From a bacterium (GTDB lineage: Bacteria > Zhuqueibacterota > Zhuqueibacteria > Oceanimicrobiales > Oceanimicrobiaceae), in assembly GCA_046757525.1 (NCBI GenBank), contig JBHHYI010000001.1, positions 106,723-170,722 on the forward strand: DNA of 64,000 nucleotides, in the 5' to 3' direction. How positions within the stretch are numbered: the first letter of the stretch is position 1; every line of letters begins with the position of its first letter. The notes beneath the pieces are model-generated. The model saw only the letters and a program-made list of their open reading frames with translations. It searched no databases and was not told where the DNA came from. The translations under genes were made by a program, and so were the position numbers. Below are positions 35,393-63,704 of the stretch, piece after piece.

Positions 35393-36283
35393 ATGGAATT
35401 AATTATTGAAGAATTAGATTCTAAGCTCATTGGGAAGAAATTAGGGCAAAACCTCTACAATTCAAAGGGGAGCCTGCTGTTGCGCAAGGGGGCAGAAATC
35501 GAGATGTTGCATTTTGCCCATCTCAAGAGTCTGGGTTACCAGAGTGTCTATGTGCTCAATGGTAATTCCGCAGATTTGGACCAGGATGGGGAAATTATTT
35601 CCGGGCACCTGCGTGCGAAGGGGCCGCACGAGCTCAAAGGCATCTTTAGAAAGTTGCTGACGGATGACAGAAGACAGATTGCAACCGCGAAAAAAGAGGT
35701 TTTCGTGTTAGCGGAAAATATACTCAAATCAGTTAATTTGAAAAAGCACGAGGGATCGAAGATCCTGGACTTAAAAAGACAGGGGGATTATCTCTGTCAA
35801 CATTCAATCAATGTGGCTGCTTACTCAATCCTCATCGGCACCTGTCTGTCCTACCATCAGTTGAAATTGTCTGATTTGGCCGTGGCAGCTTTATTGCACG
35901 ATTTTGGCATGCTATTCATAGACGAATCGCTGTTAAATAAGTCGACGGCACTAACTGAAAGCGAATCAGAATTAATCAAAGAGCACACGGTAAAGGGCTT
36001 TCAACACCTGGGCCGCAATTGTTCCTTTAAAGGCCTGGTTACGGTCGTGGCCTTGCAACATCATGAACGCTACGATGGCCTTGGTTATCCCAAAGGTTTA
36101 GTCGGCGAGGAACCGCACGAATTTTCGCGTATCGTTGCCCTGGCCAATTTTTTTGACGCGTACACCTCAGACCGACCCTATCGCCGCATGCATACCATTG
36201 ACGCTGCGTTGCAGGTCATTCAAGATGAAGTGGGCACGGCATTTGATCCTAACCTGGTGCAGCATTTCTTGAAGTATTTCTAA
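35393..36283 (+). CDS. HD-GYP domain protein (putative c-di-GMP phosphodiesterase) embedded between fliR and flhB
   Basis: HD motif …LLHDFGM… and HHERYDGLGYP (the GYP signature). Start trimmed to ATG 35393 (MELIIEEL…), which has an AGGAG box. Confidence 0.75.
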   Translation: MELIIEELDSKLIGKKLGQNLYNSKGSLLLRKGAEIEMLHFAHLKSLGYQSVYVLNGNSADLDQDGEIISGHLRAKGPHELKGIFRKLLTDDRRQIATAKKEVFVLAENILKSVNLKKHEGSKILDLKRQGDYLCQHSINVAAYSILIGTCLSYHQLKLSDLAVAALLHDFGMLFIDESLLNKSTALTESESELIKEHTVKGFQHLGRNCSFKGLVTVVALQHHERYDGLGYPKGLVGEEPHEFSRIVALANFFDAYTSDRPYRRMHTIDAALQVIQDEVGTAFDPNLVQHFLKYF

Positions 36284-50015: not shown

Positions 50016-50909
50016 ATGAGAATCACCGACAACTTGATCAACAAAAACTTCTATGAAAACATCAGCCGTACACGGAAAAAGATGGTGCAATTGCAGTCGG
50101 ACATCGCCACTACCAAGAAGGTACGAACGCCTTCCGACGATCCCATCGGGTTTTCCAGGGCTACCCGGTTTAAGCTTTTGAAAAGTCGCAACGAGCAATA
50201 CTCGAAGAACATTCAGCAAGTTTCCGACCATGTCTCCGGAGCGCTCGCCGCCATTGATTCGGCCGTGGACATCGTTTCCCATGCCAAAGAACTGGCCGTT
50301 CAAGCTGCCAATGGCACGCTGGAGGAGACGACCAGGGGGAGTATAGCCAAGGAAGTCGACCAAATGATTGAGTCGCTGGTGACCAAAGGGAACGCCAAAC
50401 ATGACAATCGGTTCATCTTTGCAGGAACGCAAACGCTGGGAGACCCGCCATTTGTCAGAAACGGGGACGTGATTCAGTACAACGGGGACGATGGCGTGAT
50501 AAAAAATACCGTTGGCGACGGGGTGGAGGTGGCTACGAACAAGCCTGGAACCGAGGTTTTTAAGCCCGGCGGTGGTGTGGACATCTTTGACAGCATGATT
50601 GCCTTTAAGCAGGCGCTCGAGCAAAATGACGTCGCTGCCATCGAGAATTCTATCGATGATTTGGGCCAATCTCTGGACCATTTGCTCACGGTTTCCGCAG
50701 ATTTTGCCGGGCTGCAAAACAGGTTGGACGCCACAGAAGAATTGATTCAATCGCATAACCTCAAACTCACAGATGCCGCCTCCAGGATCGAAGATACGGA
50801 TGTAGTCAAAACCATCATTGACTTTCAGAATGCACAGAATGCCTACACCTTTGCTTTGCGTTCTTTCCAACAATTGATTGACACCAGCTTAATCAATTTC
50901 CTCAGTTAA
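50016..50909 (+). CDS. flgL: Flagellar hook-associated protein 3 FlgL
   Basis: 297 aa, flagellin-like N-terminal and C-terminal helices. Confidence 0.85.
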   Translation: MRITDNLINKNFYENISRTRKKMVQLQSDIATTKKVRTPSDDPIGFSRATRFKLLKSRNEQYSKNIQQVSDHVSGALAAIDSAVDIVSHAKELAVQAANGTLEETTRGSIAKEVDQMIESLVTKGNAKHDNRFIFAGTQTLGDPPFVRNGDVIQYNGDDGVIKNTVGDGVEVATNKPGTEVFKPGGGVDIFDSMIAFKQALEQNDVAAIENSIDDLGQSLDHLLTVSADFAGLQNRLDATEELIQSHNLKLTDAASRIEDTDVVKTIIDFQNAQNAYTFALRSFQQLIDTSLINFLS

Positions 50910-50946
50910 CAGCCGTTTAGAACCAACTCATGTTTAGGAGATTACA

Positions 50947-51555
50947 ATGGATAAAAATAAGACACTGAATCATGGTCAGGAGAAGATGTTAGAAGGCACC
51001 GCTCTGTTGCACCAGGGTGAATTGGAGCGAGCCCGAGAAAGCTATGCGAAAACTCTGGGGGGTGAACCTGAGAATCTCGAGGCCCTGTACGGAATTGGGA
51101 TGATTCACCAGCAGAGGAACGAATTTACGTCTGCCAGAGAATATTTTGAGAAGGCCTTGCAATGCGACGCAAACAATTCCCACCTGTTGAACAGCTTCGG
51201 GGTGGTGTCGGCCCATTTGGGCGACCGCGAGGCAGCCATTCATTCCTTTGAGAAAGCCATAGAATTGGACCCGGCTTTTGTCCAGGCAGAAAGAAACCTG
51301 GCCGAAATCTATATTGATTCAGGAGAATTTGAAAGGGGCGTAAAGCATTACATGGAAGCCTTGAAAAGGGATCCAGGAGATGTGGACACCTTGCTGGCCA
51401 TCGCGGAGCTTTATTTTGAAATCGGTGACTTTGAGTCAACAGAATTCATTCTCAAGCGAGTCCTGGAAATAGACCCTGAGAACGAATTCGCCAGAGAAGC
51501 CATCAAAATAAATTCAGCTAAGCTCGCCGCGCTTAGCCAGGTTGGACCGGAATAA
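50947..51555 (+). CDS. TPR-repeat protein
   Basis: 202 aa made of tandem TPR units. Confidence 0.7.
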   Translation: MDKNKTLNHGQEKMLEGTALLHQGELERARESYAKTLGGEPENLEALYGIGMIHQQRNEFTSAREYFEKALQCDANNSHLLNSFGVVSAHLGDREAAIHSFEKAIELDPAFVQAERNLAEIYIDSGEFERGVKHYMEALKRDPGDVDTLLAIAELYFEIGDFESTEFILKRVLEIDPENEFAREAIKINSAKLAALSQVGPE

Positions 51556-53272
51556 ACACCGGGTCGAGTTGCAGGTTACGGCTAAAATGAGAGGCAGCAA
51601 AAAAGAGATCGTAAGGCTCTTCAGGACGAACCAGGTGGAGCAGGCTTACCTGAGAGCAAAAGCTCTTTTGACGGAATTCCCCGCTGACTATGAGCTGCAT
51701 TACATCCTGGGCATGATCCATGGTTCGCAGTACCGCTATGTCGACGCCTTGCAATCCTTTAGTCGGGCCCTGACTTTCAACCCAGGGCACAGGCCGTCGC
51801 TGACCGAACGGGGCATTATTTTTATGACGCTCAGACGGGATCGCCAGGCCCTGGCCGAGTTTCGTGAAGCGCTCAGAGTCGATCCTCTTGCGCACGACGT
51901 CTGTCATTATGTCCGTGAAATCGAAAGACGAATGAAGCCAGTGGAGCCGACCCTTGCCGCCTGTCTCATCGTAAAAAATGAAGCAAAACACCTGCCTAAC
52001 TGCTTGAAGAGTATTCAGGCTGTGGTGGACGAGATGGTGGTGGTAGACACCGGCTCTGAAGATGCCACTCCAGAAATCGCACGGCAATTCGGCGCCCGGG
52101 TCGTGCAGTTTGAGTGGCGGAAGGATTTCGCTGCTGCCAGAAATTTTGCCATAAGACAGGCTGAGAGCGATTGGATTTTGCAAATAGATGCGGACGAAGA
52201 GCTGTTTCCCGAAGACCAATACAAGATTCGTGAGATCATCCACCAGAGGGATTGTAACGGGGCCTTTGTAGCAATGAGAAATAGAAACTCGAGCCTGTTT
52301 GGCGAGAACCCGTGCACGGTTCACTACCTGGTGCGCCTCTACCGCAACCACAGATCGATCTATTATGTCAATCCCATTCATGAAACGTTGAAGATATCCG
52401 GTGAGGTTGTTGCCACCGACATCAATTTCCTGCATCACGGCTATAATTTGGACGCCGAGTACATGAAGCAGAAACGACGGCGAAACGCCGAGATCCTGTA
52501 TCAAAGGTTGCAATCTGACCCGAGCAACATTACCACCCTGTTTTATCTTTCCATGATGCATTTGGGCAATGAAGAATATGACCAGGCTGGAATCTACGCA
52601 AAGCAGGTCCTGGAGAAGCTGAGTCCCCAGGACGCGAAGAAGCAGCATTTTTATTTGATGATGCTCAACAATCTGGCCTGGATTCATGTAGAAAAGCAAA
52701 ACTATGCGTTGGTGCAGAAATACTGCGAGCAGGCCATTGCTATAAACAGCAATTACTTAGATCCCCAATTCTTTTTAGGCCTGAGCTATTTTAAGGAGGA
52801 ACAGTATGAGAAAGCCAGGGAGACCTTTGAAAGATTCCTGAAGAAATATGGAGAGATCACACAAAACCCTGTGTTTAATTTGTTTGCCCATTCGTCTCAT
52901 GCCTATTTGTACCAGGTTTATCACCTCCTGGGCAAGATATCTCGAAGAGAAAAGAACTATCCCGTGGCGCAAAGGATGATGTTGAAGGCGATCGAGAGCA
53001 ACCCCAATTTCTGGATCGGGTATGCGGACCTGGGTTACCTAAGCATGGACCTGAGCGAGTGGCAAAAAGCTGCTCACTATTTGTCGACGGCCGTCAGCAT
53101 TGCGAAAAAGAGCCCGCACGTCAACAGGAACAATAGAGTCGTTTGGTTTGATTTTTTTAACCTGTTGAAGAATTATGTTGCGGTGCTAAAAAAATGTGCC
53201 GGCGCGGCAAAAGCGGCTCCTGTTAGCGTATCTTCAACCGTGCGCCAAGAATCAAATGCTGAACAGAGTTAG
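51542..53272 (+). CDS. Glycosyltransferase family 2 domain fused to TPR repeats (paralog 1)
   Basis: GT2 motifs …CLIVKNEAKHLPNCLKSIQAVVDEMVVVDTGSEDAT…ILQIDADEELF…. The start is uncertain (TTG 51542 or ATG 51587). Confidence 0.75.
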   Translation: MDRNKHRVELQVTAKMRGSKKEIVRLFRTNQVEQAYLRAKALLTEFPADYELHYILGMIHGSQYRYVDALQSFSRALTFNPGHRPSLTERGIIFMTLRRDRQALAEFREALRVDPLAHDVCHYVREIERRMKPVEPTLAACLIVKNEAKHLPNCLKSIQAVVDEMVVVDTGSEDATPEIARQFGARVVQFEWRKDFAAARNFAIRQAESDWILQIDADEELFPEDQYKIREIIHQRDCNGAFVAMRNRNSSLFGENPCTVHYLVRLYRNHRSIYYVNPIHETLKISGEVVATDINFLHHGYNLDAEYMKQKRRRNAEILYQRLQSDPSNITTLFYLSMMHLGNEEYDQAGIYAKQVLEKLSPQDAKKQHFYLMMLNNLAWIHVEKQNYALVQKYCEQAIAINSNYLDPQFFLGLSYFKEEQYEKARETFERFLKKYGEITQNPVFNLFAHSSHAYLYQVYHLLGKISRREKNYPVAQRMMLKAIESNPNFWIGYADLGYLSMDLSEWQKAAHYLSTAVSIAKKSPHVNRNNRVVWFDFFNLLKNYVAVLKKCAGAAKAAPVSVSSTVRQESNAEQS

Positions 53273-53287
53273 AAAATTGGAGTGCCA

Positions 53288-54709
53288 ATGGAATATGGCT
53301 TCAAGCATGGGAAGCCCACCCTTTCGCTTTGCATGATCGTCAAGAACGAGGCAAGGTACCTGGAGGCGTGTCTCAAAAGTGTGGCAGATTTGGTGGATGA
53401 AATCATCGTGGTCGACACCGGGTCCACCGACGCTACTTTGGACATTGCTCGAAGATTCAAGGCAAGAATCTACCATTACCCGTGGACCCAAGACTTCGCA
53501 GCCGCGCGCAATGAAAGCCTCAAACACGCCACAAGCGACTGGATCCTCTATTTGGATGCCGACGAGCGATTGGAAGCCAGGAGCAAGCGTGAGTTGCTTG
53601 GGCTTTTGAGAAACAAATCCATTCTGTGTGTCAATGTACTGATCGATAGCCCGCTTAGGGACTCCAGGAAAGGACACATCAGTCGGTCGCACCGCTTGTT
53701 CCGCAACTTACCCGGGATCAGATTCTCTGGCCGAGTCCATGAACAGATTTCGCCTTCGATCGCCGGGTTAAAAGGGAAAGAATGTTTTTCTACCATCAGG
53801 CTGAAGCATCTGGGCTACGCAAAGGACGCGCCTGAGATGTCGAAGAAAAGCCGCCGCAATTATGAGCTGCTGCAACTGCAAATCAGGGACGAGCCAGTCA
53901 ATGCCTACTGGCATTTCAGTTTGGCACAGAATCAGATTCTGAGCCAAAAATACCGGGAGGCCAGGGAATCGCTCGGCATCGCCTTAAGAATTGGCGGCCT
54001 GCCGGAAGACATTTTATGCTCCATTTACAACAATCTGTCGGAAGTTCATCTCAAATTGGCAAAACTCGACGAGGCCATAAGCTACGCTGAAAGAGCTCTG
54101 TCGATAACGCCGAATCAATGTACAGCGCACCTGCTGCTATTTCAGATTTACCAAACTCAGGGCAACAAGAAAAAACAACTCGAGTCACTGGAGGCAGCCG
54201 TCGGAGTTGTAGAGGGGCAGAAGACCGGGCAGCAAAAAGTCTCGGTGGAAGCGTATGTGGATCGGGCGGCACTCTACGTCAGTTTGGCAGGGCTTTATTT
54301 GCAAGAGAACCGCGTTGCGGAGGCCCGCGGTTATTTCCAAAGAGCCTTGCGGATCGATCCGGACAATGTCAGCGCATTGAACGGCCTGGCGGATTGTTTA
54401 TTAGAGGAAAGGAGATTCATTGAAGCCAGCAAAATCCTGGAGCATCTCGATTTGGTCAGTCCGGAAGATTTAGCAAGGAAGGAAAAGCTGGCCTGGCTTG
54501 CGATCAAGTTGGGCAATTACCCGAGAGCCATCGAGATTTACAAACATCTCCTTGAAATAGAACCGCACAATGTTGTCTTGAACAGACAGATGGCCGCCTT
54601 ATGCCACAAGATTGGCTTGACCGCCCAGGCCAGGAGGTATCTTGCCAAAGCAAAACGTCATTCCCATAGCTCTGTTGCATCCGAGACGACTGCGCAGGTC
54701 CTGCCTTAA
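53288..54709 (+). CDS. Glycosyltransferase family 2 domain fused to TPR repeats (paralog 2)
   Basis: ATG 53288 with GGAG 6 nt upstream. …LCMIVKNEARYLEACLKSVADLVDEIIVVDTGSTDAT…LYLDADERLE… closely parallels the preceding gene. Confidence 0.75.
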   Translation: MEYGFKHGKPTLSLCMIVKNEARYLEACLKSVADLVDEIIVVDTGSTDATLDIARRFKARIYHYPWTQDFAAARNESLKHATSDWILYLDADERLEARSKRELLGLLRNKSILCVNVLIDSPLRDSRKGHISRSHRLFRNLPGIRFSGRVHEQISPSIAGLKGKECFSTIRLKHLGYAKDAPEMSKKSRRNYELLQLQIRDEPVNAYWHFSLAQNQILSQKYREARESLGIALRIGGLPEDILCSIYNNLSEVHLKLAKLDEAISYAERALSITPNQCTAHLLLFQIYQTQGNKKKQLESLEAAVGVVEGQKTGQQKVSVEAYVDRAALYVSLAGLYLQENRVAEARGYFQRALRIDPDNVSALNGLADCLLEERRFIEASKILEHLDLVSPEDLARKEKLAWLAIKLGNYPRAIEIYKHLLEIEPHNVVLNRQMAALCHKIGLTAQARRYLAKAKRHSHSSVASETTAQVLP

Positions 54710-55050
54710 AATCGATTCCATGCTTCCTACCCTTTCGTCTTCCCAATTGTGAGGCATCCTTGCCCCACCGCGGGAAAATGTGCCACACTTCTTGCTTTCT
54801 CTTTTAAAATCATATTGTTACACGCCCGGAATTCCTGGGGAGTGAGACATGAATGTCCCAAAGCAAAAATTGGCAGGTAATTGACTAAAAAGCCAGGTCA
54901 GGTTTAATTAATGTAAAAACAAGGTATTACATCAACAGATATTTTACCCTGAAACTACCGTTTTTTGGTACGATGCTTGTAAGAAGCGGGTTACTTTGTT
55001 GACAAGGTCGTTAAAGGAGGTTTTCTACTAAAAATCTGCAGGAGGATACT

Positions 55051-57981
55051 ATGGCTAAAACACGCTACTTTTTAATTGCGGTGATTGTTGCGTTTTCGCT
55101 GTTTTTCTTGCACCAGGAAACACGTGCGCAGTCCACTTATGTTGGCACGGAGACGTGCAACAATTGCCACGGCAAAGAAGCCAATTTTGCGGGCAATCAA
55201 TGGGCTACCTGGGTCAAGACCCGGCATAACATGAAATGGCGGGATCCTGACGAAGGGTTAGGCGTGGTTGCCCATGATTACTTCGTCAACAACCTGGATC
55301 TGTCTACGGATCCGGACTTCGCTGCTTTCGGGGCGAACGCGCCCAAGCTCAGCTTCGACCCCTCTGATCCGGCGGATTCCACCGACGGTAAGAGCGGCTA
55401 CCGCGTCACGGTTGGTGCCACAACCTACGAGGTGAACTGGACGCTGGGTGGTACCGGTGTCTGGAAACAGCGTTACATGACGGAGATTGGCAACAGCATC
55501 TACATTCTGCCCATTCAGTACAATGAAACAACCGACGACTGGGTGCCTTATCATCCCCCCACCTGGTATGACAGCAACAACCAGCCGTTGGCAGAGGTTC
55601 CCAAGGCGGACTCTTACCAACGCCGCTGTATCGGCTGCCACTCGGTCAATCCTGTGGTGAGCTTCAACGATAGCACTGGAGAGTGGACCGCCACGGTGAC
55701 CGAGCGCAATATTGGCTGCGAAGACTGCCACGGTCCCGGAAGTGAACACGCTCAAACCACGGACAAGACCAAGATCATAAATCCCGAAACCGATCTCACC
55801 AACAAAGACAGACGCCTGGAAGTCTGCGGCGCCTGCCACGGCCGCGGTTCCAGCACCGCCACTCTGGGCGGCAAAAACTTTGGCTTCCCTTACAACGATG
55901 CCAATGGCCACTATCGACCTGGCGAGGTATTGGCCGATTATTACAACCAAACGACGTCGTCTTCTAACTTTTGGCCCAATGAACAGCCTTACGGCCGGAA
56001 TTCCAAATCGCACCACCAACAATATCTCGACTTCTTGACCAGCGCCCATTACAGCAATCCGTTCGAGGAGATCAACTGCTGGACCTGTCACGATCCACAT
56101 GGGGGCACGGGCCAGGAGTTTCTAATCCGGGACAAGCTGGTGGAAGACGGCGTGGAGATCGCTACGACCAACGATGACAACACCCTTTGCCTGGCTTGTC
56201 ACGCGGAATTCGAGCCCTTCGATCTGATTAGCAAAGAAATGGTAGCAGACCCCACGGGAGCCAATTTGGAAACCATCAAAGCCGTGGTAGAAACTCACAC
56301 GAAGCATCCTTATGATCCTACGGGCACTGGGGCCAGTAGGTGCACCAAGTGCCACGATCCAAAGGTCGCCAAGTCGGCGATCGAATACGACATCCATTCC
56401 CACTCCTTTTGGGTGATGTCCCCGGAACAAACGCTTACCTATCAGCCTGAAGGCGGGGTGCCAAATTCCTGTGCGGTGAGCTGCCACAGAAAGGCCGAGT
56501 TCCCGAATTTTGGCATGGACCTGTCTGGCGACGTTCTCAAGACCTGGACAGAATCTACCGATATCGCCCTGGCCGATACTCTGCAACGCTTTTTGGGTGC
56601 TGGAGGCTATTGGTGGGATACGGATCCGTCTGGCAACATGGGTGATCCCCTGTTGGTCAAGCGGGTCGATACCATGCCAACCATCGATGGTGACGATTCC
56701 GATGCGGCCTGGGCCGGCGCACAAGAAACGACCCTGGCCAACGGTGCTACCATCAAGGCTGTGAACAATTCGGACATGGTGGCCTTTTTGGTCAAGTGGA
56801 GCGATCCTACCATGAGCATGACGCGCGGCGGCTCCTGGCAGTGGGTGAGCGGCGCCTGGGTTAAAACCAATGCCACGGAAGAAGGCGGTGCTAATGAAGA
56901 TCGCTTCAACATCTTGTGGAACATCAACATAAGTGAATTTGGCCAGAGAGGCTGTGCCACCAAATGTCATGGTCAGGAAGGCAATGCCACAGGGGCTTAC
57001 CTGGATAAAGTGGGCGAATATGCCGACATGTGGCACATGAAGGCCTCACGGGCTCTGCCCGCGATCAGCTCTTCACAATCCGACAATTTGACTTTCAGCA
57101 CTTCTGACGCGACCGACCAGCATCAGGTGACCAGCGGAACCATCATTCTCAACGGTTACGCCGACGACAAACTCACGGCAGCCCGACTGGATCCGGCTTA
57201 CCCATTCGATCCGGAGGACGGCGGACGTCATGGTGACAGCGGCACGGCCATGTTTCGCCACAACCGCAACTCCGACAAAACCGCTCCCATGTACATTGAA
57301 ACCGCACCAACCAACTACATCGACGGCATGGTGCTCTACCAGTCGGAAATTGACAACGGTGAAGCGGTGGAAGTTGCCAGTTTATCTACCCAGCAGATCG
57401 ACCAGGCCTGGGCGGCGTACGCTGCGGTCAACGCAGTGGTGCCTGAGCGGATCATGCAACAGCCGGCTGGCAGCCGCGGCGATGTGCGGGAAGCGGCAAA
57501 ATGGGAAAACGGCCAGTGGACCGCAGAATATGAACGCGCCCTGGTGACTAACAACGTCGACGACGTCCAATTCGACGACTTGACCAAGGGCTACCTCTTT
57601 GGAACGTCTATCATGGACAACTCGGGTGGCGATAAGCACAACATCTCTGCGCGCTTAAATGAATTGCGCTTCGACGAGTTTGTTGGCATCGAAACGCCCG
57701 GCGCCGACAATCTGCCATCCCAGTATGCGTTGTTGCAAAACTATCCCAATCCATTCAATCCCACGACCAAAATACGCTTTACCCTCAGGAAAAGTGGATT
57801 GGTGAAGCTTAGAGTTTTCAACATGTTAGGTCAGCAGGTCAAAACGCTGGTCTATCAGCAACTTCCGGCCGGTCAGTATGAGGTTCCATTTGATGCGTCG
57901 CAATTCTCTTCCGGTTTGTATTTGTACAGACTTGAAGTGAACGGTTTCACGCAGGTGAAAAAAATGGTGTTGGCCAAGTAA
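55051..57981 (+). CDS. Secreted multiheme cytochrome c (7 CXXCH + 2 CX3CH) with a type IX secretion system C-terminal sorting domain
   Basis: Signal peptide MAKTRYFLIAVIVAFSLFFLHQETRAQS. Heme motifs CNNCH, CIGCH, CEDCH, CGACH, CWTCH, CLACH, CTKCH, CAVSCH and CATKCH. C-terminal …NYPNPFNPTTKIRFTL…YLYRLEVNGFTQVKKMVLAK, the Por_Secre_tail signature. Confidence 0.85.
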   Translation: MAKTRYFLIAVIVAFSLFFLHQETRAQSTYVGTETCNNCHGKEANFAGNQWATWVKTRHNMKWRDPDEGLGVVAHDYFVNNLDLSTDPDFAAFGANAPKLSFDPSDPADSTDGKSGYRVTVGATTYEVNWTLGGTGVWKQRYMTEIGNSIYILPIQYNETTDDWVPYHPPTWYDSNNQPLAEVPKADSYQRRCIGCHSVNPVVSFNDSTGEWTATVTERNIGCEDCHGPGSEHAQTTDKTKIINPETDLTNKDRRLEVCGACHGRGSSTATLGGKNFGFPYNDANGHYRPGEVLADYYNQTTSSSNFWPNEQPYGRNSKSHHQQYLDFLTSAHYSNPFEEINCWTCHDPHGGTGQEFLIRDKLVEDGVEIATTNDDNTLCLACHAEFEPFDLISKEMVADPTGANLETIKAVVETHTKHPYDPTGTGASRCTKCHDPKVAKSAIEYDIHSHSFWVMSPEQTLTYQPEGGVPNSCAVSCHRKAEFPNFGMDLSGDVLKTWTESTDIALADTLQRFLGAGGYWWDTDPSGNMGDPLLVKRVDTMPTIDGDDSDAAWAGAQETTLANGATIKAVNNSDMVAFLVKWSDPTMSMTRGGSWQWVSGAWVKTNATEEGGANEDRFNILWNINISEFGQRGCATKCHGQEGNATGAYLDKVGEYADMWHMKASRALPAISSSQSDNLTFSTSDATDQHQVTSGTIILNGYADDKLTAARLDPAYPFDPEDGGRHGDSGTAMFRHNRNSDKTAPMYIETAPTNYIDGMVLYQSEIDNGEAVEVASLSTQQIDQAWAAYAAVNAVVPERIMQQPAGSRGDVREAAKWENGQWTAEYERALVTNNVDDVQFDDLTKGYLFGTSIMDNSGGDKHNISARLNELRFDEFVGIETPGADNLPSQYALLQNYPNPFNPTTKIRFTLRKSGLVKLRVFNMLGQQVKTLVYQQLPAGQYEVPFDASQFSSGLYLYRLEVNGFTQVKKMVLAK

Positions 57982-58028: not shown

Positions 58029-58063
58029 AAGGGTCGGCCGCTCAGGTCGACCCTTATTTTAAT
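58029..58063 (+). terminator. Rho-independent terminator after the cytochrome gene
   Basis: AAGGGTCG-(loop)-CGACCCTT followed by ATTTTAATT. Confidence 0.7.
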
Positions 58064-58246
58064 TCCTTAAACCGAAATAAAGACCATGGCGGCGGAACTG
58101 CGGGAGAAGCATGAAAAAGGAAGCCAATGAACCCGGAAGTAGCTCTTTGAAAACGCAGGGATTTCTCACGCAATCAGGGGCAAGGAGGCCCCAAAAATCT
58201 ACTAATGTGAAGTTAAAAACGAAACAGATTCTCTGGAGTAGCATCT

Positions 58247-58606
58247 GTGGAAGCAAGGGTCTTACTCGTTTGTAATGATGAAAATTGCCGAAAAGGGTTG
58301 ATGCATTTGTTCAAGGGGAGCGGGTTGTCCATTCACGGTGTCTTAGGGGATGCCGATCTGCTTCTCGAAATCTTGGACCGCGAATATGATTTGGTGATCT
58401 ACGACTTGGAATCATCCAACAAGGATGGGCTCAAATTAATCAAAATAATGCGAAGAATTAGGCCCAAGGTTCCGCTGCTGGTCATTTCCAGCGATCCTTC
58501 AAAGAAGCTGGGCGGTAAGGTTTTGCAAGAGGGTGTGACTTATTATTCCGTAAAGCCGATTGAACCTGCTGGTTTTAAGGAGGCCGTGTTGACTATCCTC
58601 AAGTGA
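58247..58606 (+). CDS. Atypical CheY-like receiver domain protein (acidic pocket NDE instead of DD), first gene of the respiratory operon
   Basis: …VLLVCNDEN…DLVIYDLESSNKDGL…LLVISSD…VKP. Overlaps the next gene by 4 nt. Confidence 0.55.
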   Translation: MEARVLLVCNDENCRKGLMHLFKGSGLSIHGVLGDADLLLEILDREYDLVIYDLESSNKDGLKLIKIMRRIRPKVPLLVISSDPSKKLGGKVLQEGVTYYSVKPIEPAGFKEAVLTILK

Positions 58607-58653
58607 CCAACCTGACAAGGACTCGTTGCCTGTGGATTACAATTTGGACTAAA

Positions 58654-59154
58654 ATGAACAATTCAATTTCGAATATTCTTTGTTCCCTAATTGCAGTATT
58701 AATCGCAGGCTTGCTAAGCAGTTCTGAGAAGGAGCCGGTGCAGCCGATCGCCTACAACCACAACAAGCACGTCGAGGAGGCTGGTATGGAGTGCCTGGAC
58801 TGCCACAAATATGCTGAAGAGAACGCGCGTGCGTCGATTCCAAACATCGAAGTGTGCCAGGATTGTCACGATGAGGCGTTATCTGACAGCGAAGCGGAAA
58901 AAACTTTAGTCGCCTACATCAAGAATAAGAAAAGGATACCCTGGCAACAAAACTACTTCGTCCCCGATTATGCTTACTTTTCTCACCGACGACATGTGAA
59001 GCTGGGGAAACTGGATTGCGCCGTTTGCCATGGCGATGTTGCAAAACTTACCAGGCCGATAAGCCAACCATTTGTCAAAATGAAAATGGACTGGTGCAGG
59101 GACTGTCACGAACAAAGAAAGGTATCCAATGATTGTTACGCTTGCCACAGATAG
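58654..59154 (+). CDS. Membrane-anchored pentaheme cytochrome c (ActA/QrcA-like)
   Basis: Trimmed to ATG 58654, whose N-terminus is a signal-anchor. Five CXXCH motifs (CLDCH, CQDCH, CAVCH, CRDCH, CYACH). Confidence 0.75.
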   Translation: MNNSISNILCSLIAVLIAGLLSSSEKEPVQPIAYNHNKHVEEAGMECLDCHKYAEENARASIPNIEVCQDCHDEALSDSEAEKTLVAYIKNKKRIPWQQNYFVPDYAYFSHRRHVKLGKLDCAVCHGDVAKLTRPISQPFVKMKMDWCRDCHEQRKVSNDCYACHR

Positions 59155-59173
59155 GACTTACTAAAGATTGGTT

Positions 59174-61657
59174 ATGCTGATTTCTCGCAGAGCGTTTTTG
59201 AAGTATTTGGGCATTGCGTCTGCCGGAATCCCGCTCAGCGGTTTGGGGTGTGATTCAAGGTGGTCTGTGCCTGACGAACTTCTCGGAAAAGTGGCTGGAG
59301 CTCCTCGTCTTGAAAGCTGGAAAACGAGCGTTTGCAGCCTGTGTCCCGCAGGCTGTGGCATCAAAGTGCGGTTAATCGACAGCATTCCCGTGCGGATTCA
59401 TGGCAATCCTATTCATCCGGTTAATCGAGGTGGCATCTGTCCCGTCGCTGAAGCAGGAGTCGAGGCCTTGTTTAATCCGGATAGAATCAAACAACCTTTA
59501 AAGCGAGTTGGCGAGCGTGGAGAAGATAAATGGCAAAGCATCTCCTGGAAAGAGGCGATACAAACAGTCGTCTCCCGTCTGCAAGCCTTAAGAGAGAAGA
59601 AAGAAGCGCAGAAATTGACTTTTTGGTCCGGGCATGAAAACAATCTGCTCGCTGGCTTGATCGAAAGATTTGTGCAAAACTTTGGTTCGCCCAATCTGTT
59701 TGTTTTTGGAGAAACCAATCTCTCATCTTGGGCGACTTACTTAACCCAGGGGCATAGGAATCCATTGGGATACGATTTTGAGAATATTAAGCTCCTGATC
59801 AACTTTGGGGCGGATTTGTTGGACGTTGGCCCAACTCCTGTTCGGTTTAATCAACTTTACTCAGAATTAAGAAATCGCGGCAATGGATCCAGAGCGAAGA
59901 TCATTCATATCGACTCTCGTCTTTCCCGTACCGCCGGCAATTCTGACGAATGGATACCGATTCAACCGGGGACAATGGCAGGTTTGGCGCTGGGAATGGC
60001 CAACGTCTTGATTAAAGATGGCCAGTACGACAAGGATTTTGTGAAAGCATACAGTTTTGGGTTTGAGGACTGGAAGGATAGCGAGGGTGCTTCCCATCAG
60101 GGGTTCAAATCTTTGGTTGAACAGGAATACTATCCAGAAAAAGTGGCCGATATCACCGGCGTTTCGGCCTCAAAAATAGTCACGTTAGCACGAGAGTTCG
60201 GTGCTGAGGAGTCGGCTTTAGTTGTGGCGGGCGGACAGGCCGCAAATAGCACCAATGCTCTTTACACGCTTTGGGCGATTGAATGTTTGAATGCCCTGAA
60301 GGGCAATTTCAAGGAAGAGGGGCCGGTATCCTTTGTAAAGTTACCTCCCTTTGCTGCACTTCCGGACGAGGAAAAAGATGAAATCGCTTCAAAAGGGTTG
60401 AGCCATCCAAAGCTGACCCAATCGATTGAAGATTTCTGTTTTCCGGAAGATGCCGTTTCCCGTCTGCCCAGTATGATCCTGGCTAAGCAGCCAATTCCTA
60501 TCGAGGTGCTCTTTCTCGCAAATGTGAATCCAGTGTTTGATTCGATCAATCAGGACGATTTCATTGCCGTTCTAAAAGAAATTCCTTTCATTGTGAGTTT
60601 TTCTCCATTTGTCGATGAAACGACCGCCTATGCTGATCTGATTTTGCCCGACCATAGCTTCTTAGAAAAGTATGAAGTTTATTACAACACTCCAACAGTG
60701 GAATTTTCACATTTTGGCATGCAGCAGCCCATCATTGAGCCGCTGTTCAACACCCACAACGTCGGAGATGTGATTTTGGAAATTGCTCACAATCTTGGCG
60801 GCGTGCAGGCTTCTTCCTTTCCCTGGGCGAATTATCACGAATATATCCAATCTCGGTTAGAAGGTATTTACAAGACTGGGGCTGGAACCATATTTACGGA
60901 GCGCATGGATGAAGCCTGGTTGAAATTCTTGAAAGAGCGGGGCTGGCAGATATTCGAATACACGAGTTTCAGTGAGTTCTGGGACGTTCTGTTAGATAAA
61001 GGGGGGTGGTTGGATCCATTTCCAACGAACACCCACTTTAGTAGAAGTTTCAAAACCCCATCCGGAAAATATGAATTTTATTCACAAGTATTGGAACATG
61101 AAATCAAGGCACAAATACAGGCTAATAAGGCACAGAATGACGCCTTGAATCACAGGTTGGAAAACTGGGGAGTAGATGCCCGGGGCGATGTCGTGTTTCT
61201 TCCGCATTTTGAAACGCCAAAGTTGGAGGATGGCGGTGATAAATTCTCCTTGCATCTGCTTACCTACAATTTGATTACGAACTCAAATGGCATGGCAAGC
61301 AATCTGCCACTAATGCAGGAGTTGTTTGGGCTGCTCACTCGAGAATACTGGCAGTCGTGGCTGGAGGTCAATCCCGAAACCGCCCATAAGTATGGCATAA
61401 GCGATGGGGATACGGTTAAGGTGACGTCCTCCCGAGGGAGTTTACACGTCAAGGTAAAGATACTGCCGGGGATCATGCCCGACGTTGTGCACCTTCCTTT
61501 TGGACTTGGACATAAAGCCTATGGGCGATATGCCAGGGGAATTGGCGTCAATCCGTTTGAGATTCTCGTGGAGGAATATGATGGCTTGAGCGGCAGCCCT
61601 TCTTTGATTTCGACCAAGGTCACGATAGCTAAAGTGAAGGGAAAGGGGAGAGCGTAA
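59174..61657 (+). CDS. Tat-exported molybdopterin-oxidoreductase-family (CISM) large subunit (ActB1/QrcB/PsrA-like)
   Basis: Twin-arginine motif SRRAFLKYLG. FS0 [4Fe-4S] motif CSLCPAGCG…C. About 828 aa, MopB-like. Confidence 0.75.
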   Translation: MLISRRAFLKYLGIASAGIPLSGLGCDSRWSVPDELLGKVAGAPRLESWKTSVCSLCPAGCGIKVRLIDSIPVRIHGNPIHPVNRGGICPVAEAGVEALFNPDRIKQPLKRVGERGEDKWQSISWKEAIQTVVSRLQALREKKEAQKLTFWSGHENNLLAGLIERFVQNFGSPNLFVFGETNLSSWATYLTQGHRNPLGYDFENIKLLINFGADLLDVGPTPVRFNQLYSELRNRGNGSRAKIIHIDSRLSRTAGNSDEWIPIQPGTMAGLALGMANVLIKDGQYDKDFVKAYSFGFEDWKDSEGASHQGFKSLVEQEYYPEKVADITGVSASKIVTLAREFGAEESALVVAGGQAANSTNALYTLWAIECLNALKGNFKEEGPVSFVKLPPFAALPDEEKDEIASKGLSHPKLTQSIEDFCFPEDAVSRLPSMILAKQPIPIEVLFLANVNPVFDSINQDDFIAVLKEIPFIVSFSPFVDETTAYADLILPDHSFLEKYEVYYNTPTVEFSHFGMQQPIIEPLFNTHNVGDVILEIAHNLGGVQASSFPWANYHEYIQSRLEGIYKTGAGTIFTERMDEAWLKFLKERGWQIFEYTSFSEFWDVLLDKGGWLDPFPTNTHFSRSFKTPSGKYEFYSQVLEHEIKAQIQANKAQNDALNHRLENWGVDARGDVVFLPHFETPKLEDGGDKFSLHLLTYNLITNSNGMASNLPLMQELFGLLTREYWQSWLEVNPETAHKYGISDGDTVKVTSSRGSLHVKVKILPGIMPDVVHLPFGLGHKAYGRYARGIGVNPFEILVEEYDGLSGSPSLISTKVTIAKVKGKGRA

Positions 61658-61658
61658 T

Positions 61659-62342
61659 ATGCCGAGATGGGGCATGGTCATCGATTTGAATAAGTGCACA
61701 GGTTGTGGTGAATGTGTTGCTGCATGCAAAGTAGAAAACAATGTGGCCATCGTAGGACCAGGGGAGTCCGCAAAAGAGCGAACCATGCTCTGGATGGACA
61801 TCCTTACCCTGTATGAAGGGGAATTTCCACACGTAAAAGTGCGTCATATCCCGCGACCCTGTTTTCATTGCGATAATCCGCCTTGCACCAAAGTGTGCCC
61901 TGTGCGAGCAACTTATCTCAACGAAGAGGGCATTGTGACTCAGATATTTCCCCAGTGTATTGGATGTCGATATTGTATGGCAGCCTGTCCTTATACTGTC
62001 AAGTCATTTAACTGGTACAAACCGGAATGGCCCGCAGAAATGGCTGCGGCCTGTAATCCTGATGTTTCTGTTCGCCCTGTGGGAGTCGTGGAAAAGTGTA
62101 CCTTTTGCATCCATCGGCTCCAGAAGGCCAAAGAACAGGCGGCGGCTGAGGAGCGAGAACTGGAGGAGAGAGATTACGTTCCGGCTTGCGTCGAAAGCTG
62201 CCCAACTAAAGCCATGTACTTTGGGGATTTAGATAGTCATAAAAGTGAGGTAACCAGGTTGATAAGAAGCCCTCGCGCTTTTCGGATGTTGGAAGATTTG
62301 GGCACAGAGCCTAAGGTCTATTATTTGTCTGAGGTGGAATAA
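61659..62342 (+). CDS. 4Fe-4S ferredoxin-type subunit (ActB2/QrcC/PsrB-like)
   Basis: Four Cys clusters (CTGCGECVAAC…, CFHCDNPPCTKVCP, CIGCRYCMAACP, CTFCIHR…C…CP). Confidence 0.85.
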   Translation: MPRWGMVIDLNKCTGCGECVAACKVENNVAIVGPGESAKERTMLWMDILTLYEGEFPHVKVRHIPRPCFHCDNPPCTKVCPVRATYLNEEGIVTQIFPQCIGCRYCMAACPYTVKSFNWYKPEWPAEMAAACNPDVSVRPVGVVEKCTFCIHRLQKAKEQAAAEERELEERDYVPACVESCPTKAMYFGDLDSHKSEVTRLIRSPRAFRMLEDLGTEPKVYYLSEVE

Positions 62343-63704
62343 ATGGCCGAACATCAACAAAGCACATTCGAAGATGAAGACCTGGTGCGTCCCATCGCAC
62401 AGACTGGGGCGGGTTTTTATGCCATGGTTGTCATATTAGTAGGAGTGATTGCTTTTGCTGGCTATGCTTACATCAGGCAAGTGTTTTTTGGCTTGGGTGT
62501 CACAGGTTTGGCGCAACCGGTATCGTGGGGATTCTATATCATCAACTTCGTTTTTTTTATTGGCATAAGTCATGCGGGGACCCTTATCTCGGCAATTCTC
62601 AGACTCTCGAAGGCAGAGTGGCGGCGTCCTATCACCCGCATGGCGGAAGTGATCACTGCGATTGTGTTGGCCATCGGTGGACTTCATCCAATTCTTGATT
62701 TAGGCCGCCCGGATCGTATGTTGCATCTTGTCAGCAGCGGACGTTTGCAGTCTCCATTACTTTGGGATGTTACCAGTATTACCGCCTATTTTGCTGCCAG
62801 TACCGTGTATCTGTACATTCCCATGATTCCGGATATCGCAATTTTGCGTGACCGTGGCATGAAACCACGCTGGCTTTACGAGTTCTTGGCCTGGGGCTGG
62901 CAGGGCACCGAACATCAGAAGAGGGTACTCGAAAGGGCAATCAACATCCTCATGATCATGGTCATTCCAATTGCTGTTTCTGTTCACACCGTCATTTCGT
63001 TCATATTTTCCATGACCCTTCAGCCCGGATGGCATAGCACGATTTTTGGCCCTTATTTTGTGGTAGGCGCTATTTTTTCTGGCATTGCCGCGCTGCTGAT
63101 TGTCATGATTGTTTTTCGAAAAGCATTTCATCTGGAAAAATATCTCAAAGAAATCCACTTTAATTATCTATCTATATTACTTCTAATCATGTCGGTGTTG
63201 TGGTTCTATTTCACCTTTTCTGAATATCTCACCGGGTATTATGGACACGAACCGAATGAAATGAGAGTTTTCTTTTACAAATTCATTGGCGACTTCTCCC
63301 CATTCTTTTGGTTAATGATTATGTGTAATTTTATCATTCCGATGGCCATACTGGTAAACCCAAAAACCAGAAAGGTTTCGGGCATCCTTATCGCTTCCAT
63401 TTCTGTGGTTATCGGAATGTGGTTGGAAAGACTCATAATTGTCGTCCCATCTTTGGCGAATCCAAGGTTGCCTTACCCCACGGGTATTTATGTTCCGACG
63501 TTGACGGAGTGGAGTCTTTTTGCCGGTGGTGTGGCTGCATTTATCTTAGGATATTTGATTTTTGCAAAATTATTTCCTTTGATTTCAATCTGGGAAATTC
63601 AAGAAGGGAGACGACACAGTGTTGAGGAGGTAGCCAGGCGGCTGAAATCCTATCTGCCTGAGCAGTCCCATGGCGAAATACTAAGTCCAGGCGCCGGAGC
63701 ATAA
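62343..63704 (+). CDS. NrfD/PsrC-family polytopic quinone-interacting membrane subunit (ActC/QrcD-like)
   Basis: 453 aa, about 10 predicted TM helices. Start is adjacent to the FeS gene stop. Confidence 0.8.
   Translation: MAEHQQSTFEDEDLVRPIAQTGAGFYAMVVILVGVIAFAGYAYIRQVFFGLGVTGLAQPVSWGFYIINFVFFIGISHAGTLISAILRLSKAEWRRPITRMAEVITAIVLAIGGLHPILDLGRPDRMLHLVSSGRLQSPLLWDVTSITAYFAASTVYLYIPMIPDIAILRDRGMKPRWLYEFLAWGWQGTEHQKRVLERAINILMIMVIPIAVSVHTVISFIFSMTLQPGWHSTIFGPYFVVGAIFSGIAALLIVMIVFRKAFHLEKYLKEIHFNYLSILLLIMSVLWFYFTFSEYLTGYYGHEPNEMRVFFYKFIGDFSPFFWLMIMCNFIIPMAILVNPKTRKVSGILIASISVVIGMWLERLIIVVPSLANPRLPYPTGIYVPTLTEWSLFAGGVAAFILGYLIFAKLFPLISIWEIQEGRRHSVEEVARRLKSYLPEQSHGEILSPGAGA

What the first reader, a model, noticed from the sequence alone, without database searches (positions are those of the whole stretch)
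55051..57981. 976-aa nonaheme cytochrome c carrying a type IX secretion C-terminal domain
The protein has a signal peptide, 7 CXXCH and 2 CX3CH motifs spread over about 900 residues, and a textbook Por/T9SS sorting domain (…NYPNPFNPTTKIRF…YLYRL…KKMVLAK). This predicts export through the T9SS and attachment to the cell surface. Such a protein is a strong candidate for an outer-surface conduit for extracellular electron transfer (metal or electrode reduction, or uptake). It also places the organism in the FCB superphylum, despite a full flagellar system and Shine-Dalgarno-dependent genes.
Basis: partly seen in the sequence, partly recalled or inferred. Interest (0 to 1): 0.75.

Follow-up and report, generated by a model that had tools for sequence, protein, structure and literature searches.

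The report
Type IX-secreted surface multiheme cytochrome
This gene from a flagellated Calditrichota-like bacterium encodes a nine-heme protein related to the iron- and electrode-reducing surface cytochrome OcwA, and it carries the export tag of the type IX secretion system, so that system probably places an electron-transfer protein on the cell surface, a cargo type I did not find described in the searchable literature.

Summary
ORF 55051-57981 (+) encodes 976 aa with a Sec signal peptide, 7 CXXCH and 2 CX3CH motifs (all 18 cysteines), and a type-A T9SS C-terminal domain that scores above both curated cut-offs.

- an EB_dh/DOMON-like domain holding the ninth heme through an invariant CX3CH;
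- the T9SS tail.

The family has over 1,000 members, mostly MAG proteins labelled Calditrichota, KSB1, Ignavibacteria, Glassbacteria or Bacteroidota. Of the 120 best hits, 105 carry the tail.

Six of eight genomic contexts are respiratory islands with quinone-interacting complexes, periplasmic multihemes and further T9SS-tailed cytochromes. In the window a Qrc-like complex lies just downstream.

The best reading is a T9SS-exported surface cytochrome for extracellular electron transfer. NCBI's label "NrfA nitrite reductase" fails its defining features.

T9SS core genes, the path across the outer membrane, the direction of electron flow and the substrate remain untested. No paper in the searchable library links T9SS to multiheme or c-type cytochrome cargo. 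I rate it a new variant of a known kind.

The parts
54966..54980 (+). Sigma-54-type -24/-12 element TGGTACgatgcTTGT, 85 nt upstream of the ATG (candidate promoter)
   Evidence: Pattern scan. The 77%-identical homolog in L002 has TGGTACggttgTTGT 73 nt upstream of its ATG, directly after a sigma-54 enhancer-binding response regulator gene. L003 and L087 also have such a regulator nearby. The sigma-70 scan found no promoter-like site in the 341-nt upstream intergenic region. This is a consensus match only.
55040..55045 (+). Shine-Dalgarno AGGAGG, 5-nt spacer to the ATG
   Evidence: Sequence.
55051..57981 (+). Coding sequence, 976 aa: signal peptide, octaheme OcwA-like core, EB_dh heme-c domain, T9SS type-A C-terminal domain
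   Evidence: The identical protein is in GenBank as MFQ5705976.1 on a 187.5-kb MAG contig.
55051..55128 (+). Sec signal peptide (aa 1-26), predicted cleavage after T-R-A; no lipobox
   Evidence: Read from the sequence. The helix at aa 2-18 is followed by a low-confidence stretch at aa 20-25 in the model. No signal-peptide predictor was available.
55129..56598 (+). OcwA-like octaheme core (aa 27-516): CXXCH at aa 36, 193, 223, 259, 343, 380, 431 and CX3CH at aa 474; beta-sheet subdomain at aa ~99-166; conserved HH at aa 321-322
56638..57678 (+). EB_dh / DOMON-like domain (aa ~530-876) with covalent heme motif CATKCH (aa 635-640) and invariant D659-x-W661-H662-x-K664 and H863
57679..57714 (+). 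Flexible linker (aa 877-888); expected region of cleavage by the T9SS sortase
   Evidence: pLDDT below 50 for aa 877-886. The cleavage itself is inferred from how type-A cargo is processed (PMC10202324).
57715..57978 (+). T9SS type-A C-terminal sorting domain (aa 889-976), seven-strand beta-sandwich
   Evidence: TIGR04183 41.6 bits (cut-off 23) and PF18962 37.8 bits (cut-off 27). Nearly invariant family positions include L894, Q896, N897, P899-P904, T906, I908, G927, G941, G955, Y957 and K971. Fold matches to solved CTDs.
58029..58065 (+). Intrinsic terminator: 11-bp stem (7 G-C pairs), 5-nt loop, T-rich tail
   Evidence: Together with the 341-nt upstream intergenic region it makes the cytochrome gene look monocistronic.
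58247..58606 (+). Stand-alone response-regulator receiver (119 aa), a conserved neighbour of the cytochrome gene
   Evidence: PF00072 47.4 bits. 45% identical to the receiver next to the homolog in L002. The same small receiver is adjacent in L086 and L087.
58603..59154 (+). Membrane-anchored pentaheme cytochrome, QrcA-like (5 CXXCH). The real start is probably the ATG at 58654 (MNNSIS...).
   Evidence: NF041781 QrcA 109 bits, below the cut-off of 180. Cytochrome_C7 52.9 bits. Motifs and transmembrane segment.
59168..61657 (+). Tat-exported molybdopterin-oxidoreductase-like subunit (829 aa), QrcB-like
   Evidence: Pfam Molybdopterin, Molydop_binding and Fe4S4 domains. NF041783 QrcB 332 bits, below the cut-off of 440. 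SRRAFL twin-arginine motif and Cys 56/59/63/91.
61659..62342 (+). 4Fe-4S ferredoxin subunit (227 aa), QrcC-like
   Evidence: NF041782 QrcC 305 bits, below the cut-off of 400. 82% identical to the equivalent gene beside a family member in L004.
62343..63704 (+). NrfD-family integral membrane quinone-interacting subunit (453 aa)
   Evidence: PF03916 126.9 bits. DsrP 118.9 bits and QrcD 36.8 bits, both below cut-off. 81% identical to the L004 gene.

Best explanation
The gene encodes a type IX secretion cargo that is a c-type multiheme cytochrome for extracellular electron transfer.

Proposed path:
1. The precursor crosses the inner membrane by Sec.
2. Nine hemes are attached covalently in the periplasm by the cytochrome c maturation system, and the protein folds.
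3. The T9SS recognises the C-terminal beta-sandwich and moves the folded holo-protein across the outer membrane.
4. The tail is cut off at the flexible linker, and the mature ~95-kDa protein is fixed to the cell surface or released close to it.

Outside the cell, the OcwA-like octaheme core and the EB_dh heme-c domain exchange electrons with acceptors that cannot enter the cell, such as Fe(III)/Mn(IV) minerals, humics, flavins, electrodes or partner cells. I consider the outward direction (terminal reductase) most likely.

Electrons would come from the quinone pool through quinone-interacting membrane complexes (here the adjacent Qrc-like complex with its pentaheme subunit) and periplasmic multihemes. 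An outer-membrane passage is still needed and is not in the window.

Shown: nine conserved heme c sites, homology and fold of all three modules, conservation of the tail across the family, and respiratory gene neighbourhoods. Inferred: actual secretion, anchoring, partners, direction of flow and substrate.
For: - Heme sites: nine motifs hold all 18 Cys and are conserved down to 39% identity.
- Open-heme signature: OcwA's distal H281/H282 at its open heme 2 aligns with conserved H321/H322.
- Tail: passes both curated cut-offs and has the CTD fold. 105 of the 120 best homologs carry PF18962.
- T9SS presence: the distribution of CTD proteins tracks T9SS core genes with few exceptions (PMC10202324).
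- Context: six of eight contexts hold quinone-interacting modules, periplasmic multihemes, cytochrome maturation genes (CcmE, CcmH, DsbD) and more T9SS-tailed multihemes.
- Shared neighbour: the Qrc-like FeS and NrfD genes are 81-82% identical to those beside a 47%-identical family member in L004.
- Possible passage: a conserved, Cys-free, signal-peptide-bearing ~420-450-aa protein that looks like an outer-membrane beta-barrel sits in two islands.
- Open slot in the literature: in Melioribacter roseus the outer-membrane Fe(III) reductase is still 'hypothetical' (PMC3534657).
Against: - No T9SS core gene, no outer-membrane conduit and no cytochrome maturation gene lies in the 64-kb window.
- Two of eight contexts (L003, L005) have no redox neighbours.
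- The core lacks OcwA heme 7, which by OcwA's superposition on NrfA (hemes 5-9 = NrfA 1-5) corresponds to NrfA heme 3 and which I recall as central in that heme arrangement. Continuity of the heme chain is therefore unproven, and the model carries no hemes.
- The Qrc complexes I know of work as quinone reductases, which would fit inward rather than outward electron flow.
- No c-type cytochrome is listed among T9SS effector classes in a 2023 review, and I found no experiment on any family member.
- OcwA also turns over nitrite and hydroxylamine, so an enzymatic role is not excluded.
Confidence: 0.6

Rival explanations
1. Same export route, opposite direction. The surface cytochrome takes up electrons from extracellular donors (Fe(II), reduced humics, cathodes, partner cells) and passes them through periplasmic cytochromes to the adjacent Qrc-like complex, which reduces menaquinone.
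For: The adjacent four-gene complex scores best against QrcA, QrcB and QrcC, subunits of a menaquinone reductase. It has a Tat-exported periplasmic subunit and a membrane-anchored pentaheme subunit suited to accept electrons from the periplasm. The complex recurs next to a family member in L004. Multiheme cytochromes are generally reversible (my own knowledge).
Against: All Qrc scores are below the equivalog cut-offs, and the membrane subunit is closer to DsrP. From my own knowledge, the related alternative complex III works as a quinol oxidase. Most other contexts hold Rieske/cytochrome b or NapC/NirT-type modules, which I know as typical quinol oxidisers. The characterised homologs OcwA and OmhA act in reduction.
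Confidence: 0.2
2. It is an extracellular or surface enzyme of the NrfA/MccA/octaheme superfamily that reduces or detoxifies a soluble nitrogen or sulfur oxyanion (nitrite, hydroxylamine, sulfite, tetrathionate) at an open-coordination heme. It is not a mineral or electrode reductase.
Against: OcwA's nitrite turnover is only 1 per minute. The second OcwA open-site histidine is replaced by Thr417. There is no CXXCK motif and no MccA-type CX15CH motif. Small soluble anions can enter the periplasm, so export would bring little benefit (inference). The neighbourhoods show no nitrogen- or sulfur-cycle genes.
Confidence: 0.12
3. It is the periplasmic ammonia-forming nitrite reductase NrfA, as the GenBank record names it, and the C-terminal domain is incidental.
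For: NCBI product name for MFQ5705976.1. PF02335 27 bits over aa 217-388.
Against: The Pfam hit covers only profile positions 122-286 of 438. No NrfA equivalog appears in the NCBIfam scan at E up to 1. There is no CXXCK motif. The protein has nine hemes and 976 aa, where I recall NrfA as a pentaheme of roughly 500 aa. The best structural match is OcwA, with NrfA only a marginal sequence hit (6V0A, E 0.13). The sorting domain is conserved family-wide.
Confidence: 0.02
4. The EB_dh/CBM9-like domain binds polysaccharide, and the protein delivers electrons to secreted oxidative carbohydrate-degrading enzymes, as the DOMON-type cytochrome domain of fungal cellobiose dehydrogenase does.
Against: Short family members lack the domain altogether yet keep the core and the tail. 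Most contexts are respiratory, not carbohydrate-related. No partner oxidase was identified.
Confidence: 0.04

Closest known systems
OcwA (PDB 6I5B), nonaheme outer-cell-wall cytochrome of Thermincola potens
   Different: OcwA comes from a monoderm and has no T9SS tail and no EB_dh domain. Our family lacks OcwA heme 7 in all 75 members checked. OcwA's CXXCH for heme 9 is a CX3CH here. OcwA's second active-site His is Thr here.
OmhA (PDB 6QVM), undecaheme S-layer cytochrome of Carboxydothermus ferrireducens
   Different: Eleven hemes with an N-terminal extension, monoderm S-layer association, no T9SS tail and no EB_dh domain.
MtrC/OmcA decaheme outer-membrane cytochromes of Shewanella
   Same: Analogous proposed job: a surface multiheme terminal reductase of a diderm fed through the outer membrane.
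   Different: A different fold family, since OcwA-type cores are unrelated to the MtrC 'staggered cross'. TIGR03507 scores 17.6 bits against a cut-off of 209. From my own knowledge, MtrC/OmcA are lipoproteins exported by type II secretion; this protein has no lipobox and uses a T9SS tail.
Heme-b gamma subunits of type II DMSO-reductase-family enzymes (EbdC 2IVF_C, NxrC 7B04_C); EB_dh Pfam family
   Different: Here the heme is predicted to be covalent through an invariant CX3CH, and the domain is fused to a multiheme core rather than being a subunit of a molybdoenzyme. This heme-c version is itself widespread: 682 representatives, 111 of 145 inspected with the signature.
Characterised T9SS type-A cargo (gingipain RgpB, Hbp35, mirolase, NucA)
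   Same: Sec signal plus C-terminal Ig-like beta-sandwich matching TIGR04183/PF18962, with a flexible linker before the tail.
   Different: The known cargo classes listed are proteases, nucleases, carbohydrate-active enzymes, adhesins, S-layer proteins and a heme-scavenging protein. No cytochrome or respiratory protein is listed. The host is outside Bacteroidota proper.
NrfA / MccA / octaheme cytochrome enzymes
   Different: No CXXCK or CX15CH motif, a different heme count, an export tag, and no partner genes of those pathways.

Membership tests
T9SS type-A cargo | N-terminal Sec signal peptide | tested here: met
   Positive n-region, 15-residue hydrophobic core and T-R-A cleavage motif, read from the sequence. 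No dedicated predictor was available.
T9SS type-A cargo | C-terminal domain matching TIGR04183 / PF18962 above the curated cut-offs | tested here: met
   41.6 bits against 23, and 37.8 bits against 27, aa 898-973.
T9SS type-A cargo | Ig-like seven-strand beta-sandwich fold of the tail | tested here: met
T9SS type-A cargo | T9SS core machinery (PorK/L/M/N, SprA/Sov, PorU, PorV) in the same genome | not testable with these tools
   No such gene appeared among the 50 window ORFs scanned with Pfam, and the cytochrome gene's own tail is the only T9SS tail found in the window. The rest of the MAG could not be reached. Indirect support: CTD proteins track T9SS core genes with few exceptions.
T9SS type-A cargo | Demonstrated secretion and removal of the tail | not testable with these tools
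   Needs proteomics or fractionation.
OcwA/OmhA cell-surface multiheme cytochromes | Homologous sequence and fold of the heme domain | tested here: met
OcwA/OmhA cell-surface multiheme cytochromes | Full set of nine OcwA heme sites in the core | tested here: not met
   Eight sites. The OcwA heme-7 motif aligns to ADPTGA, and none of 75 family members has a motif there.
OcwA/OmhA cell-surface multiheme cytochromes | Conserved non-bonding distal histidines at both open hemes (OcwA H281/H282 and H380/H381) | tested here: inconclusive
   The first pair is kept (H321 invariant, H322 at least 90%). The second is H416/T417. Heme coordination itself cannot be read from sequence.
OcwA/OmhA cell-surface multiheme cytochromes | Reduction of Fe(III) oxides or electrodes at the cell surface | not testable with these tools
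   Biochemistry is required.
NrfA (the GenBank product name) | CXXCK active-site heme motif and pentaheme architecture | tested here: not met
   No CXXCK. Nine motifs in 976 aa.
NrfA (the GenBank product name) | Full-length match to the NrfA models | tested here: not met
   PF02335 scores 27 bits over profile positions 122-286 of 438 only. No NrfA equivalog appears in NCBIfam at E up to 1.
MtrC/OmcA decaheme family | Match to TIGR03507 and a lipoprotein signal | tested here: not met
   17.6 bits against a cut-off of 209.3. No Cys follows the signal peptide. PF22113 is only a partial hit (35 bits, aa 331-441).
EB_dh / DOMON-like heme domain | Pfam PF09459 above cut-off and the gamma-subunit fold | tested here: met
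EB_dh / DOMON-like heme domain | Non-covalent heme b, as in EbdC and NxrC | tested here: not met
   An invariant CX3CH (C635, C639, H640) predicts covalent heme c. This belongs to the heme-c subgroup of the family.
Qrc menaquinone reductase (neighbouring genes) | NCBIfam equivalog cut-offs for QrcA-D | tested here: not met
   QrcA 109 of 180, QrcB 332 of 440, QrcC 305 of 400, QrcD 36.8 of 570 bits. The gene order and subunit types are the same, so I call it Qrc-like only.

The most novel reading that the evidence does not exclude
In FCB lineages outside the classical Bacteroidota (Calditrichota, KSB1, Ignavibacteria and relatives), the type IX secretion system is the dedicated route that puts folded, heme-loaded OcwA-type cytochromes on the cell surface. 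Together with an outer-membrane passage and quinone-linked complexes, this would form a distinct, so far undescribed architecture for extracellular electron transfer. It would also supply the missing 'hypothetical outer-membrane Fe(III) reductase' of these bacteria. The EB_dh heme-c domain would be the outermost contact site.
Probability: 0.45. Interest if true: 0.8.

Novelty: new variant of a known kind. Interest (0 to 1): 0.62.

Why it matters
From my own knowledge, extracellular electron transfer in diderm bacteria is understood mainly from Shewanella and Geobacter, where surface cytochromes are lipoproteins delivered by type II secretion.

If T9SS delivers holo-multiheme cytochromes, three things follow:
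- T9SS gains a new functional class of cargo, respiratory redox proteins. A 2023 review of effectors lists none.
- A large, environmentally abundant group of bacteria (Ignavibacteria, Calditrichota, KSB1 and others) seen in iron-reducing and anode communities gets a concrete, testable candidate for its terminal reductase.
- A simple sequence signature, an OcwA-like core plus TIGR04183, becomes available to predict this capacity in metagenomes.

It also corrects a misleading database label (NrfA nitrite reductase) that would inflate predictions of nitrite ammonification.

Tried and rejected
- **Genome-collection scan for the family.** The tool picked the generic tail peptide PNPFNPxTxI as its pattern, so all 80 loci are T9SS cargo in general.
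- **AlphaFold-database fold search.** The library was not available.
- **Finding the cytochrome on its 187-kb NCBI contig.** Only a 9.8-kb Logan copy was returned, so T9SS core genes could not be sought in the same genome.
- **Single-sequence search of the EB_dh domain against PDB.** Only a marginal NxrC hit (E 0.12) over the C-terminal half, so the distal heme ligand could not be mapped. H662, K664 and H863 remain candidates.
- **tblastn of the other island components against the window.** The putative beta-barrel, the 414-aa multiheme, the NapC/NirT-type cytochrome and DUF2339 were all absent.
- **NCBIfam on the putative beta-barrel.** No hit.
- **Rfam and tRNA scans.** Nothing in the 341-nt upstream region.
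- **Ten literature searches combining T9SS terms with multiheme, cytochrome or electron-transfer terms.** No relevant paper. The M. roseus genome and multi-omics papers, the C. abyssi genome paper and the T9SS effector review do not make the link either.
- **Rejected labels.** NrfA and MtrC/OmcA membership, both failing defining features, and the idea that flagella or Shine-Dalgarno use argue against an FCB origin.
- **Correction of my own notes.** Respiratory contexts number 6 of 8 distinct loci, not 7 of 9.
Full report
**Observation.** The ORF 55051-57981 (+) exists as described: ATG start, 976 codons, AGGAGG 5 nt upstream. It has seven CXXCH motifs (aa 36, 193, 223, 259, 343, 380, 431) and two CX3CH motifs (aa 474 CAVSCH, aa 635 CATKCH). 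These nine motifs use all 18 cysteines. From the protein's own composition 0.0095 CXXCH would be expected by chance. The N-terminus has the layout of a Sec/signal-peptidase-I signal and no lipobox. The C-terminus matches the type-A T9SS sorting domain above both curated thresholds: TIGR04183 41.6 bits against 23, PF18962 37.8 bits against 27.

**Anatomy.** The protein has three modules, not one long cytochrome. An AlphaFold2 model built on 77 homologs has mean pLDDT 84.6, with low-confidence linkers at aa 517-528 and 877-886.

**Relation to OcwA.** A profile of the family hits OcwA at E 6e-34. Motifs 1-6 correspond to OcwA hemes 1-6, motif 7 to heme 8, and the CX3CH motif 8 to heme 9 with a one-residue insertion. 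OcwA's heme-7 motif aligns to ADPTGA. Three MAFFT strategies give the same mapping, and none of 75 family members has a motif there. The core is therefore an octaheme derivative. These are all sequence alignments, and no heme-loaded model was available, so continuity of the heme chain is open.

The literature describes OcwA as a surface-exposed nonaheme terminal reductase. Its hemes 2 and 5 are five-coordinate, heme 9 is His/Met, it has weak nitrite and hydroxylamine activity, and it binds FMN tightly (PMC6703420). Its distal histidines H281/H282 and H380/H381 are conserved in OcwA/OmhA sequences (PMC9250108). After correcting for a 29-residue numbering offset, the first pair aligns with H321/H322 here (invariant and at least 90% conserved). 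The second pair aligns with H416/T417.

**The family.** The word-indexed search found 1,310 relatives at E up to 1e-3. The identical protein is GenBank MFQ5705976.1, named 'ammonia-forming cytochrome c nitrite reductase subunit c552', on a 187.5-kb MAG contig. Among the 120 best hits, 105 carry PF18962 and 39 carry EB_dh.
- Short forms (~620-750 aa) have the core plus the tail and eight hemes (37 of 38).
- Long forms (~950-1000 aa) have the core, EB_dh and the tail. Thirty of 39 show the 7+2 motif pattern of the query, that is nine hemes.
- Short forms 68-72% identical to our core exist, while more distant long forms are 40-47% identical, so the EB_dh insert comes and goes within the family.

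Named sources are Calditrichota, KSB1, Ignavibacteria/'Chlorobi', Glassbacteria and Bacteroidota MAGs. All nine heme motifs and the tail motifs are invariant or nearly so.

**The EB_dh heme-c domain.** An exhaustive search with aa 530-880 found 682 cluster representatives (63 at E up to 1e-30). Of 145 inspected, 111 carry the same C-x3-C-H followed by the D-x-W-x-x-K signature. Only 6 have four or more CXXCH motifs, and only 7 have a T9SS tail motif. Architectures include stand-alone ~340-500-aa proteins, tandem repeats, and N-terminal domains of membrane histidine kinases. The domain is a common extracytoplasmic monoheme module. Its fusion to an OcwA-like core with a T9SS tail is a minority combination.

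**Surroundings in the window.** The gene looks monocistronic. It has a 341-nt upstream intergenic region with a sigma-54-type element (TGGTAC-N5-TTGT) 85 nt before the ATG, and a strong terminator at 58029-58065.

Downstream lie a receiver-only response regulator and a four-gene Qrc-like complex:
- a membrane-anchored pentaheme cytochrome;
- a Tat-exported molybdopterin-like subunit;
- a 4Fe-4S subunit;
- an NrfD-type membrane subunit.

Qrc models are the best NCBIfam matches for three of the four subunits, but all fall below the equivalog cut-offs.

Upstream are two TPR-glycosyltransferases and a large flagellar cluster that includes the P-ring protein FlgI. The 5' end of the window has NusA, IF-2, RibF and PNPase. 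The window contains no T9SS core gene, no other T9SS-tailed protein and no other heme-rich ORF beyond the QrcA-like one. Rfam and tRNA scans found only tRNA-Pro at 13156-13231.

**Contexts elsewhere.** Seven homolog loci were read. With the window, six of eight contexts are respiratory islands:
- L004 (47% identical homolog) has the same Mo-like/FeS/NrfD trio, whose FeS and NrfD are 81-82% identical to the window's. It also has a 935-aa T9SS-tailed multiheme, CcmH and DsbD.
- L002, L086, L087 and L088 share a recurring set: the small receiver, a ~414-aa multiheme, Rieske/cytochrome b or a ~505-aa NapC/NirT-type cytochrome, DUF2339, a ~290-aa cytochrome, and further T9SS-tailed multihemes (541 and 906 aa, TIGR04183 39.7 and 41.4 bits).
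- L002 and L087 hold a conserved ~420-450-aa protein: 55% identical between the two, with a signal peptide, no Cys, an alternating G/S/T/N/Y-rich pattern and an aromatic C-terminal region. It looks like an outer-membrane barrel. This is an inference from sequence only, and the gene is absent from the window.
- L003 and L005 have no redox neighbours.
- Sigma-54 enhancer-binding regulators lie next to the gene in L002, L003 and L087.

**Organism.** PNPase is 71-72% identical to proteins labelled Calditrichaeota, 69% to Caldithrix sp. and 64-69% to KSB1. The nearest named cytochrome homolog is from a Calditrichota MAG. Caldithrix abyssi has a full flagellar gene set (PMC5317091). Melioribacter roseus is flagellated and has enzymes with Por sorting domains (PMC3534657). 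Flagella and a T9SS tail in one FCB genome are therefore not surprising.

**Mechanism.** I commit to the following order of events: Sec export, periplasmic heme attachment, T9SS translocation of the folded holo-protein, removal of the tail, and surface display or local release. Extracellular electron exchange would follow, most likely reduction of insoluble or large acceptors, fed from the quinone pool through Qrc-like, bc-type or NapC-type modules and periplasmic multihemes.
- Shown: the heme sites, the homologies, the conservation of the tail, and the neighbourhoods.
- Inferred: secretion, anchoring (type-A cargo may be anchored or released), the outer-membrane step, the direction of flow and the substrate.

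My confidence is 0.6. The main rivals are inward electron uptake coupled to quinone reduction by the Qrc-like complex (0.2) and an extracellular oxyanion reductase (0.12). The GenBank label NrfA fails on motif, size, model coverage and best structural match (0.02).

[quoted passage not shown] I found no paper in the searchable library that links T9SS with multiheme or c-type cytochromes or with extracellular electron transfer. A 2023 review of T9SS effectors does not mention cytochromes. The library lacks most subscription journals, so this is absence of evidence only. I classify the finding as a new variant of a known kind: an OcwA-type surface cytochrome adapted to a diderm through a T9SS tail, often extended by an EB_dh heme-c domain.

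Noticed in passing
window 58603-63704 (+): A four-gene Qrc-like complex lies directly downstream: a TM-anchored pentaheme cytochrome, a Tat-exported molybdopterin-like subunit with an Fe4S4 motif, a 4Fe-4S subunit and an NrfD-type membrane subunit. All score below the Qrc equivalog cut-offs. The FeS and NrfD subunits are 81-82% identical to genes next to a 47%-identical family member in L004.
   Followed up: partly
window 54966-54980; also 9962, 17827, 37245, 42953, 43144 (+) and 29302, 20224, 17124 (-): Nine matches to a strict sigma-54 -24/-12 pattern occur in the window, where base-count arithmetic predicts about two. One lies 85 nt upstream of the cytochrome gene. Several lie in the flagellar cluster, and a sigma-54 enhancer-binding response regulator is encoded at 16305-17687.
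   Followed up: partly
GenBank MFQ5705976.1 (= window 55051-57981): The public record names this protein 'ammonia-forming cytochrome c nitrite reductase subunit c552'. KSB1 homologs P0033 and P0101 carry the same name. This looks like an over-extension, perhaps resting on a partial Cytochrom_C552 match like the one seen here, and would inflate nitrite-ammonification predictions in MAG surveys.
   Followed up: yes
L002:19269-20615 and L087:18897-20168: A conserved ~420-450-aa protein with no Pfam or NCBIfam hit. It has a signal peptide, no cysteine, a beta-barrel-like composition and a C-terminal ...ANYWFF... stretch. It sits inside two cytochrome islands next to ~400-aa multihemes and is a candidate outer-membrane porin of a porin-cytochrome conduit. 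It is absent from the window.
   Followed up: partly
proteins P0297, P0302, P0305, P0345, P0374: The same EB_dh domain with the CX3CH heme motif forms the N-terminal extracytoplasmic part of membrane-bound PAS/histidine-kinase proteins. This suggests a heme-c-based redox or ligand sensor domain.
   Followed up: no
protein P0250: A permuted architecture: an EB_dh heme-c domain 61% identical to ours comes before the start of an OcwA-like module. The sequence stops inside that module and is probably cut off. This fits modular shuffling of these parts.
   Followed up: no
window 50016-54709 (+): A flagellin-like gene is followed by a TPR protein and two TPR-plus-family-2 glycosyltransferase genes (51542-53272, 53282-54709). 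They may glycosylate flagellin. They lie between the flagellar cluster and the cytochrome gene.
   Followed up: no
window 13156-15464: tRNA-Pro (GGG) is followed on the minus strand by an AbiEi-antitoxin-like gene (13729-14547) and an ORF with no Pfam hit at E up to 1e-8 (14730-15464). GC is lower here (0.45-0.47) and the GC skew reverses. This may be a small integrated toxin-antitoxin island.
   Followed up: no
window 35342-36283 (+): An HD_5 (HD-GYP-like) domain protein is encoded inside the flagellar export operon, between the FliR and FlhB genes. It may link cyclic-di-GMP signalling to motility.
   Followed up: no
window 58247-58606; L002, L086, L087: A receiver-only response regulator (118-122 aa) is the most constant immediate neighbour of the long-form cytochrome gene, in 4 of 8 contexts. 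Its partner kinase and its role are unknown.
   Followed up: partly
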